Source: Rhodobacterales bacterium
GTDB lineage: Bacteria > Pseudomonadota > Alphaproteobacteria > Rhodobacterales > Rhodobacteraceae
Direction of reading: 5' to 3'
Assembly: GCA_041752495.1 (NCBI GenBank)
Contig: JBGSWJ010000523.1
Coordinates: 38 to 64,037, forward strand
DNA length: 64,000 nt
Shown here one piece after another: positions 60,001-63,000 of this stretch (positions are counted from its first letter, which is position 1; the number at the start of each line of letters is the position of its first letter). Position numbers: made by a program.

Positions 60001-63000
60001 CGGAACAGTATGACGGACCTGCCGACGTCCAAACAGGTAGTGGAAAAGCCCGATGATCGCGCCTGCCAGCGTTACCGACAGGAACATGACAATCAGAATC
60101 AAAATCGAACGATCTGTCATAATCCGAGGGGCCCGTCCTGACTCAACCGTTCGACGATGCGGCAGATAGGTTAACTGACCGTTAACTCAGCGTTAATCGC
60201 GTGGTAATCCTCGAACCGGGCGTTGTGGACGGCGTGTTCGTATCAGGCCCTGATCGGGATGTTGTCGCCAAGCCCTTCGGAAGTTTGTTCGACTTGCGCC
60301 AGGACCTTGTCGAGGGGCCATTCCACGATCACGATTGCGCCGGTCCAGTCATCGGCAGAGTTCGGACTCATGGCTCCGTTGGCAAAGCTGAGCCGCGCGC
60401 CGGATCGTTCGAGGAGGGTCTTGGCGATAAACAGACCAAGGCCCATACCTTCGTAGCCCGGTCTGCGGGCCCGGTCATCGGTTGTCTTGCGACCGCGCAT
60501 GAATGGGTCGCCGATCCGCCCCATGACAGATTGCGGAAAGCCCGGACCATCGTCCTCTATTCTTATGATTACAGAACGTTCTGTCCATGTTGCCTCAATC
60601 TCCACGCTGGATCTGGCGAAGTCGACGGCGTTCTGGATCAGGTTGCGCAGGCCATGGATGATTTCGGGCCGGCGCATGATGACGGGCTGACGCGACTCTT
60701 GGCCATCGTCGGGTGCTGCGGCGAAACGAACGGTCTTGCCGCGGTGGATGTGGGGTTCTGCCGCTTCGTTTACGACCGTCTCGAGGGGTGCGCTGCGGAG
60801 GTGAAGATCCTCTTTGCCGGCACGGCCCATGGAGCGGAGGATGTCGCGGCAGCGGTCGGCCTGAGTGCGGATCAGTTCGGCGTCGGCGCGCAATTCGGGT
60901 TGCCCGCCAAGGTCTTCCATCATCTCGCTGCTGACGAGTTTGATGGTTGCAAGCGGCGTGCCGAGTTCATGGGCGGCGGCTGCAACAACGCCGCCGAGGT
61001 CAGTGAGTTTCTGTTCCCGGGCCAAAGCGAGTTGGGTGGCAACGAGAGCTTCGGACATGAGGTGCATTTCTGTGGTGACCTGCCGGGCGTAGATGCCGAG
61101 AAAGACCACACCGATCATCAGGGCCGCCCAGAAGCCGAAGAGGAAAAGATCAGGCAGAACAAGGGCGTCGTCGTCTCTGGTCAAGAGGTGCACGTGCCAC
61201 TGGGAAAGTGCGGTCAGAAGAGTCATCGCGATGAGCCCGATCAGGATCGTGCTGCGCAGGTGCAGGACCGTGGCCGAGATCGTGACGGGGGCCAGCATGA
61301 GAAGAGCGAAGGGATTATGCAGCCCCCCCGTCAGGTAAAGCAGAAGCCCGAGTTGCAGGATGTCAAAGACAAGGAACATGCTCGCCTCTCGCTCCGACAG
61401 GCGGCGGCTTTCGGCAAAAAGGAATGTTGAGAACAGGTTGGCCACGATGGACGCCCCAATCGTGACGGCGGCCAGGCCCACTTCGATCTGAAGGTGAAAG
61501 ACCATGACGGCGACCACAACCGCAACGATCTGTCCCAGGATCGCAAACCAGCGGAGGATGACAAGGGTCCGCAGGCGGACCCAGTTGCTGCGGCTTTGTT
61601 CCTGAAACATCTCAAGCTCGGTCACGGCCATGTGCATGCCCCCGGCTATGCGGCATATCTGCACCTTGATATGGGGCGCTTCACAGCGGATCAATGGCGC
61701 GACTTTTGTGGTGCGGTATCGCGTCTGTAACGCGACTGTATCACGTCGGTGCCAGAAGCAGAGAACGGGGCCAATATGCAGAACCGGACCATCGCCATTG
61801 CGGCAAGCGCCATCGTCGTGACCGGGCTTTTGGCGACCCTGCTGGCGTCAACTGTCTTTGCCCCGGCGGGCGATGCCTTTTCGGATTGCCGTGGCGGCGC
61901 GGTCGCGGGTGGTGATATCGGCGGGCCGTTCGAACTGGTCAACGCGGCGGGACAGACGGTGACGGACAAGGACGTCATCACGACGCCCAGCATAGTTTAC
62001 TTCGGCTATACATTTTGTCCCGACGTGTGCCCGCTGGACAATATGCGGAACGCGCAGGCGGTCGATATTCTGCAGGAACGCGGAATCACGGCGACGCCCG
62101 TGTTCATCTCGATTGACCCGGAGCGGGATACGCCCGAGGTCGTGGGGCAGTTTGCCATGAACTTCCACGACCGGATGATCGGCCTGACGGGGAGCCCCGA
62201 GCAGGTGGATGCGGCGTCAAAGGCCTATCGCACCTTCTATCGCAAGCAAGAGAGTGATGCGGATGATCCGTACTACCTGATGGACCATTCGACGTTCAGC
62301 TATCTTGTCCTGCCCGAGATCGGTTTTGTCGATTTCATCGGACGTGACGATACGCCCGAGGTTGTTGCCGACCGACTTGAATGCTTTGCAAAGGCTGCGG
62401 GCATTTGACCCTGAGAGGATTGGGCGCTACTTCCCGATGAAATGACGGGAAGGAATTGCTGTGGATAGCGAAGCCTACGATCTGGGCGAAGACCGGACGC
62501 TTCTTCTGGTTGATGACGATGATGCGTTTCTGAAGCGTCTCGGCAAGGCGATGGAGAAACGCGGTTTCATCGTCGAACTGGCCGAAAGCGTGGCCGTCGG
62601 CAAATCCATCGCAATGTCCCGCCCGCCCGCCTATGCGGTGGTCGATCTGCGGCTTGAAGACGGAAACGGGCTCGACGTAGTCGAGACATTGCGGGACCGG
62701 CGGCCGGATTGCCGGGTCGTTGTGCTGACGGGCTATGGTGCGATTGCAACGGCCGTTGCTGCGGTCAAGATCGGGGCCATCGACTATCTGTCCAAGCCTG
62801 CCGATGCGACCGACGTGACCAACGCCCTGCTTGCGCGGAAATCCGAACTGCCGCCGCCGCCCGAAAACCCGATGAGCGCGGATCGCGTGCGGTGGGAACA
62901 TATCCAGCGCGTTTATGAACTGTGCGACCGAAATGTGAGCGAGACGGCCCGCCGGCTGAGCATGCATCGCCGGACGCTGCAGCGCATTCTGGCCAAGCGC

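What the first reader, a model, noticed from the sequence alone, without database searches (positions are those of the whole stretch)
60121..60242. Four helically phased CtrA-type half-sites upstream of a PAS-only signalling protein (possible DivL-like feedback loop)
TTAACtgaccgTTAACtcagcgTTAATcgcgtggTAAT (60171-60208) contains one exact TTAA-N7-TTAAC, a second TTAA-N7-TTAA(T) and a third with one mismatch. This gives four half-sites at 11-bp spacing, 51-88 nt upstream of the ATG of the 536-aa TM+PAS protein (58510-60120). I cannot see an H-box or ATPase motifs in that protein. I recall that a truncated, PAS-only DivL homologue acting on the CckA-ChpT-CtrA relay has been described in Rhodobacter capsulatus, encoded not far from the origin. 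If this ORF is its counterpart, the sites would indicate direct CtrA feedback on its own upstream regulator. The gene also directly follows regB.
Basis: partly seen in the sequence, partly recalled or inferred. Interest (0 to 1): 0.6.

Follow-up and report, generated by a model that had tools for sequence, protein, structure and literature searches.

The report
CtrA boxes before short divL gene
The repeated TTAA motifs are real, conserved binding sites for the cell-cycle regulator CtrA in front of the kinase-less DivL gene of a freshwater Rhodobacterales bacterium; this feedback loop was already predicted and partly tested in related model species, so only the extra upstream repeats are unusual.

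Summary
The regB-PAS gene spacer holds TTAA half-sites at 60171-74, 60182-85 and 60193-96, plus a one-mismatch fourth at 60204-07, all 11 bp apart. The triple array is unique in the 4.26-Mb genome.

The 536-aa protein has one TM helix and four PAS-like modules, with no HisKA or HATPase domain. It is the reciprocal best hit of long DivL pseudo-kinases (SYELRTPL H-box) from other alphaproteobacterial families. It is therefore the short DivL of Rhodobacterales.

An exact TTAA-N7-TTAA lies 42-57 nt before the start codon in 80 of 80 close orthologous loci. It is also present in 58 of 66 loci sampled one per genus, with none elsewhere in about 720 kb of flanking DNA. It sits 10 bp upstream of conserved -10-like positions, so it replaces the -35.

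The genome encodes CtrA and ChpT. Brilli 2010 predicted this CtrA-to-divL feedback. Wang 2014 reported the site and CtrA-dependent expression in Dinoroseobacter shibae, and Fogg 2019 showed divL falls in Rhodobacter capsulatus ctrA knockouts. Other first readers in this scan noted the same box before short divL in other genomes.

Only the third and fourth half-sites are clade-specific, and their function is untested.

The parts
60171..60185 (-). Conserved core CtrA box. In gene sense it reads TTAACGGTCAGTTAA followed by CC, with half-sites at 60185-60182 and 60174-60171.
   Evidence: An exact TTAA-N7-TTAA lies at this position in 80 of 80 orthologous loci, 42-57 nt (median 48; here 50) before the start codon. 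There are no such sites in the other 487 kb of those loci. In the one-per-genus sample it is present in 58 of 66 loci, with none in the other 235 kb. The consensus is TTAAC...ccaTTAACCat.
60193..60196 (-). Third, upstream half-site (TTAA). With 60185-60182 it forms a second exact TTAA-N7-TTAAC (60196->60181).
   Evidence: It is kept in L001 (81% protein identity) and in L113 (70%), although the spacers differ (cgctga vs cggaga; cggtca vs cagtca). It is absent in L115 (60%) and in most other loci. Similar third sites arose separately in L014, L077 and L043.
60204..60207 (-). Fourth, degenerate half-site (TTAC in gene sense; one mismatch).
   Evidence: It is kept in L001 but reads TTGC in L113, so there is no evidence of constraint.
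60154..60159 (-). Putative -10 hexamer (CATCGT in gene sense), 10 bp downstream of the core box. The predicted transcription start is near 60147.
   Evidence: In the ungapped stack of 80 loci anchored on the box, position +27 is A in 65 of 80 and position +31 is T in 66 of 80. This is the A2/T6 pattern of a -10 hexamer. No consensus sigma-70 promoter is found by pattern scan, as expected for an activator-dependent promoter. The transcription start is inferred, not measured.
58510..60120 (-). Short (kinase-less) divL: 536 aa, with an N-terminal TM helix and four PAS-like modules.
   Evidence: Pfam gives PAS_8 (158-204), PAS_7 (278-389) and PAS_4 (407-500), with no HisKA or HATPase_c. The AlphaFold2 model (mean pLDDT 77) shows a helix at 2-31 and PAS-like alpha/beta modules at 48-134, 168-255, 282-385 and 413-508. 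It is the reciprocal best hit of Tyr-H-box DivL proteins. It is single-copy in the genome.
60243..61694 (-). regB (redox sensor kinase), immediately upstream on the same strand. The real start is probably the ATG at 61631 (residue 22 of the ORF).
   Evidence: NCBIfam NF045988 RegB equivalog, 744 bits, with model position 1 aligned to residue 22. No terminator-like hairpin lies between regB and divL.
62461..63012 (+). regA (response regulator of the RegB/RegA pair), on the strand opposite regB.
   Evidence: NCBIfam NF033791 ActR/PrrA/RegA equivalog, 318.6 bits against a cut-off of 250.

Best explanation
The regB-divL spacer carries the CtrA-dependent promoter of the short, kinase-less divL gene. 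A CtrA dimer, presumably phosphorylated, binds the conserved direct-repeat box TTAAC-N5-GTTAACC (60185-60170). The box lies 10 bp upstream of the -10 element and takes the place of a -35 hexamer, as in PhoB- and OmpR-type activated promoters, and from there CtrA activates transcription.

DivL is a membrane-anchored multi-PAS protein that promotes CckA kinase activity and so CtrA phosphorylation. This has been shown in R. capsulatus and is inferred here. The site therefore closes a positive feedback loop: CtrA~P -> divL -> CckA kinase -> ChpT -> CtrA~P.

In this clade one certain and one doubtful extra half-site continue the 11-bp register upstream. They probably let a second CtrA dimer bind on the same face of the helix and raise occupancy or cooperativity. 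With no terminator after regB, read-through from regB may supply basal, CtrA-independent divL expression.

Shown here: the sequence, its conservation, its position, the homology to DivL, and the presence of CtrA and ChpT. Inferred: CtrA binding, the sign of regulation, the transcription start, and the role of the extra half-sites.
For: The motif is exact and locally unique. Exact TTAAC-N5-GTTAAC occurs at only three loci in the genome: divL, a luxR-luxI pair, and an Osp-like single-domain response regulator. The latter two match known CtrA targets in relatives.

The box is conserved at a fixed distance in 80 of 80 close loci and in 58 of 66 genus-level loci, with no such sites in about 720 kb of flanking DNA. 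Conserved A and T positions mark a -10 element 10 bp downstream. In Caulobacter, CtrA-activated promoters carry the box near -35 (cited).

The genome encodes CtrA (NF045991, 415.6 bits, cut-off 350). It also encodes ChpT (PF10090, 84 bits).

The protein is the DivL orthologue by reciprocal best hit.

Literature: Brilli 2010 predicted CtrA sites on kinase-less divL in Rhodobacterales. In D. shibae, divL is down in ctrA, cckA and chpT knockouts and has a CtrA site in its promoter. In R. capsulatus, divL (rcc00042) is down in ctrA knockouts, and DivL promotes CtrA phosphorylation through CckA.
Against: There are no binding, transcription-start or expression data for this organism.

Genome-wide, single TTAA-N7-TTAA sites are no more frequent than in shuffled sequence (9 against 3-8). 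The argument therefore rests on conservation and on the array, not on the motif count.

A box that overlaps -35 could also repress. The sign is taken from relatives only.

Orthology to them rests on three things: synteny with regB; gene numbering (regA = rcc00045); and the family-wide single copy.

The fourth half-site is not conserved at 70% protein identity.
Confidence: 0.85

Rival explanations
1. The box is a CtrA operator that represses divL by occluding the -35 region. This would give negative rather than positive feedback.
For: The box covers the place where a -35 hexamer would lie. In Caulobacter, CtrA represses some promoters by overlapping them (general knowledge, not tested here).
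Against: In D. shibae and R. capsulatus, divL transcripts fall when ctrA is deleted. No recognisable -35 hexamer or consensus promoter exists that could work without an activator. Activated CtrA promoters carry the box near -35.
Confidence: 0.07
2. The TTAAC repeats are bound by another regulator that shares the half-site, for example an Fnr/Dnr-type protein. CtrA dependence in relatives would then be indirect.
For: FnrL ChIP-seq and site predictions place FnrL next to divL in R. capsulatus. A Dnr/Fnr site TTAAC-N4-GTCAA shares a half-site with CtrA.
Against: The conserved unit is a direct repeat with an 11-bp period (TTAA-N7-TTAA, followed by CC). It does not have the N4-spaced inverted repeat of Fnr-type sites. 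The flanks match the CtrA consensus TTAACCAT. The other perfect sites in this genome lie before known CtrA targets.
Confidence: 0.05
3. The repeats are a chance or neutral feature, such as replication slippage of an 11-bp unit, with no regulatory role.
For: Single TTAA-N7-TTAA sites are not enriched genome-wide. The fourth half-site decays in a 70% relative.
Against: The core box is present at a fixed distance in 80 of 80 and 58 of 66 orthologous spacers, while the surrounding spacer sequence is unconserved, and there are no sites in about 720 kb of flanks. The third half-site persists while its spacers change.
Confidence: 0.03

Closest known systems
divL (Dshi_3433) promoter of Dinoroseobacter shibae (Wang et al. 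2014, BMC Genomics 15:130)
   Same: It is a PAS-only DivL homologue with a TTAA-N7-TTAAC site in its promoter. Expression is reduced in ctrA, cckA and chpT knockouts.
   Different: The paper reports one predicted site. This window has three exact phased half-sites plus a weak fourth. No experiments exist for this organism.
Rhodobacter capsulatus DivL, Rcc00042 (Westbye et al. 2018, AEM 84:e00275-18; not readable here, known through papers that cite it)
   Same: It is a kinase-less PAS protein that promotes CtrA phosphorylation through CckA. Its transcript depends on CtrA. Gene numbering places it beside the reg cluster (regA = rcc00045).
   Different: I could not make a direct sequence comparison. 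The organism here is an uncultured freshwater lineage whose nearest relative is a Lake Pavin MAG (L001, 81% identity).
'Cluster B' CtrA circuit of Rhodobacterales (Brilli et al. 2010, BMC Syst Biol 4:52)
   Same: DivL lacks the kinase domain and DivK/DivJ/PleC are absent. CtrA sites are predicted on the cckA and divL promoters, which the authors read as a feedback.
   Different: That was a prediction from the few genomes available in 2010. Here it is extended to about 150 loci, with a fixed box-to-start distance, a conserved -10 element, and the regB linkage.
Caulobacter crescentus DivL (pseudo-histidine kinase)
   Same: It has an N-terminal membrane anchor and a multi-PAS sensor region. Residues ~150-506 align at 23-31% identity to the region just before the DHp domain of long DivLs from other families.
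   Different: This protein has no DHp domain with the Tyr H-box, no CA domain, and therefore no DivK-binding surface.
PhoB pho-box promoters of E. coli, such as pstS with tandem pho boxes (general knowledge)
   Same: A winged-helix response regulator of the same superfamily binds direct repeats with an 11-bp period, placed 10 bp upstream of -10 in place of the -35. Some promoters add further boxes in register upstream.
   Different: The regulator and motif differ. This is an analogy of mechanism only and was not tested here.
osp promoter of Rhodobacter sphaeroides (Vega-Baray et al. 2022, mBio 13:e01481-22)
   Same: A CtrA box lies about 54 bp before the start codon of a regulator of CckA, which closes a feedback loop on the same relay.
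   Different: Osp inhibits CckA, giving negative feedback. DivL stimulates it, giving positive feedback. This genome appears to have both.

Membership tests
CtrA binding site (TTAA-N7-TTAAC) | Match to the consensus: two TTAA half-sites 11 bp apart, with a 3' C | tested here: met
   There are two overlapping exact matches in gene sense and one on the other strand.
CtrA binding site (TTAA-N7-TTAAC) | A CtrA regulator with a conserved DNA-binding domain is encoded in the same genome | tested here: met
   C77:1647-2330 matches NF045991 at 415.6 bits (cut-off 350). ChpT is also present.
CtrA binding site (TTAA-N7-TTAAC) | Conservation of the site in orthologous promoters | tested here: met
   The site is present in 80 of 80 close loci and in 58 of 66 one-per-genus loci, with none in about 720 kb of flanks.
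CtrA binding site (TTAA-N7-TTAAC) | Position near -35 of the regulated promoter (activated class) | tested here: inconclusive
   Conserved A/T positions 10 bp downstream fit a -10 element.
CtrA binding site (TTAA-N7-TTAAC) | Physical binding by CtrA~P and CtrA-dependent expression | not testable with these tools
   There is expression evidence only from relatives, through the literature.
DivL (Caulobacter-type pseudo-histidine kinase) | Membrane-anchored multi-PAS sensor region homologous to that of DivL | tested here: met
   It is the reciprocal best hit for 14 of 14 Tyr-H-box proteins. The model shows a TM helix and four PAS-like modules.
DivL (Caulobacter-type pseudo-histidine kinase) | DHp domain with Tyr in place of the phospho-accepting His, plus a CA domain | tested here: not met
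   There is no HisKA or HATPase_c hit. The protein ends about 30 residues after the last PAS domain.
Short DivL of Rhodobacterales (Rcc00042 / Dshi_3433 type) | PAS-only DivL homologue lacking the kinase module | tested here: met
Short DivL of Rhodobacterales (Rcc00042 / Dshi_3433 type) | Single-copy gene directly downstream of regB | tested here: met
   This holds in 79 of 79 close loci and 66 of 73 genus-level loci. The R. capsulatus gene numbering is consistent with it (inferred).
Short DivL of Rhodobacterales (Rcc00042 / Dshi_3433 type) | Direct sequence orthology to Rcc00042 / Dshi_3433 | not tested
   The named sequences could not be retrieved.
Short DivL of Rhodobacterales (Rcc00042 / Dshi_3433 type) | Stimulates CckA kinase activity and CtrA phosphorylation | not testable with these tools
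   Known for R. capsulatus only.

The most novel reading that the evidence does not exclude
The extra phased half-sites are a clade-specific gain. They let two CtrA dimers bind cooperatively and make divL the most CtrA-sensitive promoter in this genome. That would sharpen the positive feedback into a bistable switch of the kind thought to underlie subpopulation behaviours in Rhodobacterales. Separately, the family-wide regB->divL linkage without a terminator would reflect read-through transcription that couples RegB/RegA redox sensing to the CtrA relay. This could help explain why loss of regA lowers the CtrA regulon in R. capsulatus.
Probability: 0.15. Interest if true: 0.4.

Novelty: new member of a known kind. 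Interest (0 to 1): 0.2.

Why it matters
This locus confirms in a previously unstudied freshwater lineage that CtrA feeds back on its own upstream activator DivL. The survey run here adds three points to what is published:
- The box is almost universal across the family and sits at a fixed distance from the start codon.
- It replaces the -35 element.
- divL has stayed linked to regB through the stepwise loss of its kinase domain.

None of this changes the known picture. It gives a clean natural series of promoters with two, three or four half-sites for anyone who wants to measure CtrA cooperativity.

Tried and rejected
1. The papers of Westbye 2018 and Mercer 2010 are not held, so I used papers that cite them.

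2. I could not obtain Rcc00042 or Dshi_3433. The R. capsulatus divL qPCR primers translate to peptides (PTLYAFL, MTELEQ) that resemble the family's AFLFED and RSELE segments. This is too weak to count as evidence.

3. GANTC (CcrM) methylation sites: one lies at 60140-60144, but such sites are not enriched in the orthologous spacers (28 of 80 against about 22 expected). Rejected.

4. 5' leader hairpins: only 9 of 76 loci have z < -2, and the window does not (z = +1.4). This is not a general feature.

5. The pattern scan found no sigma-70 consensus promoter on the gene's strand and no terminator in the spacer.

6. No regB lies next to long divL genes outside the family.

8. I did not run a fold search on the model, because the question was settled by sequence.

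Full report
**Observation.** The spacer between two minus-strand genes (60121-60242) reads, on the + strand, gTTAACtgaccgTTAACtcagcgTTAATcgcgtgGTAAt.
- TTAA half-sites lie at 60171-74, 60182-85 and 60193-96, and a one-mismatch GTAA lies at 60204-07. Each is 11 bp from the next, and they span 51-88 nt before the ATG at 60120.
- GTTAAC is its own reverse complement. The gene-sense strand therefore carries two overlapping exact TTAA-N7-TTAAC sites.
- All three matches in the window lie here, against 0.02 expected.
- In the whole assembly (4.26 Mb, 618 contigs, 62.8% GC) the full motif occurs at 7 loci.
- Single TTAA-N7-TTAA sites (9) are no more frequent than in shuffled sequence (3-8). The triple exact array and the four-site array with at most one mismatch are each unique.
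- The stricter Rhodobacterales form TTAAC-N5-GTTAAC occurs at only three loci, and three times here.

**The genes.**
- The upstream ORF is RegB (NF045988, 744 bits). Its real start is probably residue 22 of the ORF.
- RegA lies on the opposite strand beyond it (NF033791, 318.6 bits), and TsaE lies downstream of the PAS gene.
- The 536-aa product has PAS_8, PAS_7 and PAS_4 hits and no HisKA or HATPase_c.
- An AlphaFold2 model built from 17 homologues (mean pLDDT 77) shows an N-terminal helix at 2-31 and four PAS-like modules joined by long helices.

**Is it DivL?**
- In 60 genomes drawn evenly from other alphaproteobacterial families, 41 have a match, usually a single one. The listed best matches lie mostly in open frames of about 650-990 aa and align to residues ~150-506 (E down to 4.5e-42).
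- In 15 of 29 retrieved hits an H-box reading S-Y-ELRTPL lies about 33 residues after the aligned region. Tyr in place of the phospho-accepting His is the hallmark of DivL.
- The two hits that I scanned have the PAS-PAS_7-HisKA-HATPase_c architecture.
- The PAS portions of 14 such proteins, searched back against this genome, all hit this gene first.
- The window protein is therefore the orthologue of DivL, cut off at the junction between the last PAS domain and the DHp domain. This is the 'short DivL' described for Rhodobacterales.

**Conservation of the site.**
- I retrieved 80 loci from named Rhodobacterales genomes, at 38-81% protein identity.
- regB lies directly upstream on the same strand in all 79 loci with enough flank.
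- All 80 loci have an exact TTAA-N7-TTAA within 260 nt of the start codon. In nearly all, the gap to the start codon is 42-57 nt (median 48; 50 in the window). The remaining 487 kb of those loci holds no such site.
- The rest of the spacer is unconserved, with two exceptions. The flanks give the consensus TTAAC...ccaTTAACCat. Two positions downstream are also conserved: A at +27 (65 of 80) and T at +31 (66 of 80). This is the A2/T6 signature of a -10 hexamer that starts 10 bp after the box.
- The box therefore occupies the -35 position, as described for CtrA-activated promoters in Caulobacter (cited). PhoB boxes are placed the same way (general knowledge).
- In a second, unbiased sample of one genome per genus across the family, 73 of 80 genomes have one homologue each. 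regB is upstream in 66 of these; most of the rest are cut by contig ends. An exact box lies between regB and the PAS region in 58 of the 66, with none in the other 235 kb.

**The extra half-sites.**
- The conserved core is the proximal pair (60185-60171).
- The third half-site is present in the window, in the 81%-identical Lake Pavin MAG (L001), and in a 70%-identical contig (L113). In L113 both spacers have changed while the TTAA is kept.
- The fourth half-site reads TTGC in L113 and so is not conserved.
- A 60%-identical relative (L115) has only the core.
- Third half-sites in register also occur in L014, L077 and L043, so the expansion recurs sporadically.

**The relay in this genome.**
- CtrA is present (C77:1647-2330; NF045991, 415.6 bits). 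ChpT is also present (PF10090, 84 bits).
- The ctrA promoter carries a one-mismatch box.
- The two other perfect boxes in the genome precede a luxR-luxI pair and a 120-aa single-domain response regulator. The latter has D51 but lacks the acidic pair after beta-1 and the conserved Lys. These are the features that define Osp, the CtrA-activated inhibitor of CckA in R. sphaeroides.

**What is already known.**
- Brilli et al. 2010 predicted that in Rhodobacterales lacking DivK/DivJ/PleC, DivL lacks its kinase domain and CtrA controls cckA and divL, forming a feedback.
- Wang et al. 2014 found a CtrA site in the promoter of D. shibae divL (Dshi_3433) and reduced divL expression in ctrA, cckA and chpT knockouts.
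- In R. capsulatus, divL (rcc00042) falls in ctrA knockouts, and DivL promotes CtrA phosphorylation through CckA.
- regA is rcc00045, which places rcc00042 beside the reg cluster as here. This is an inference.
- The short DivL is general in the order.
- Other first readers in this scan noted the same box before short divL genes in other genomes.

**Mechanism proposed.** CtrA~P binds the core box in place of a -35 hexamer and activates divL. DivL stimulates CckA kinase. The loop is positive. The extra half-site or half-sites probably recruit a second dimer on the same face of the helix. With no terminator after regB, read-through may give basal expression. CtrA binding, the sign of regulation, the transcription start and cooperativity are inferred, not shown.

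**Side results.**
- Within the family, some genera keep long or decaying DivL forms, all still downstream of regB. Their H-boxes read AYQLRTPL, SHRLRTPL or SQELKIPL, or they carry degenerate tails of 160-213 aa.
- Long divL genes outside the family have no regB neighbour.
- GANTC sites and leader hairpins are not general features.

**Verdict.** The finding is a new instance of a published circuit, with a minor clade-specific expansion of the operator.

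Noticed in passing
G000:C526:35813-36280 (same genome, outside the window): A perfect TTAAC-N5-GTTAAC box, plus a TTAACCAT half-site about 20 nt downstream of it, precedes a 120-aa single-domain response regulator. The protein has D51 but lacks the acidic pair after beta-1 and the conserved Lys. These are the hallmarks of Osp, the CtrA-activated CckA inhibitor of R. 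sphaeroides. This genome would then have perfect boxes on both the positive (divL) and the negative (osp-like) feedback arm.
   Followed up: partly
G000:C314:6678-8391 (same genome, outside the window): The third perfect CtrA box in the genome lies upstream of a luxR (Autoind_bind + GerE) and luxI (Autoind_synth) pair. This parallels the CtrA control of luxR2I2 reported in D. shibae.
   Followed up: partly
G000:C77, about 55 nt upstream of ctrA (1647-2330): A one-mismatch box (GTAAC-gggtgg-TTAAC) lies before ctrA itself, consistent with autoregulation.
   Followed up: no
window 61631-61694: The regB ORF as listed starts at a TTG (61694). The RegB equivalog model begins at residue 22, so the real start is probably the ATG at 61631. 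That would lengthen the divergent regB/senC-regA control region.
   Followed up: no
L189-L194 (G063, G122, G076, G114, G074, G124): Within the same GTDB family, some genera have divL genes downstream of regB that still carry a DHp/CA part (H-box AYQLRTPL, SHRLRTPL or SQELKIPL) or degenerate tails of 160-213 aa. This is a series of decay from long to short DivL, and the regB linkage predates the truncation. Long divL genes in other families have no regB neighbour.
   Followed up: partly
L016, L021, L033, L027, L052, L045, L046 (5' leaders of divL): In a minority of orthologous loci (9 of 76 with z < -2) a strong hairpin lies between the putative -10 element and the start codon. The window has none.
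   Followed up: partly
window 60140-60144: A GANTC (CcrM methylation) site lies just downstream of the predicted transcription start. Such sites are not enriched in the orthologous spacers (28 of 80 against about 22 expected).
   Followed up: yes
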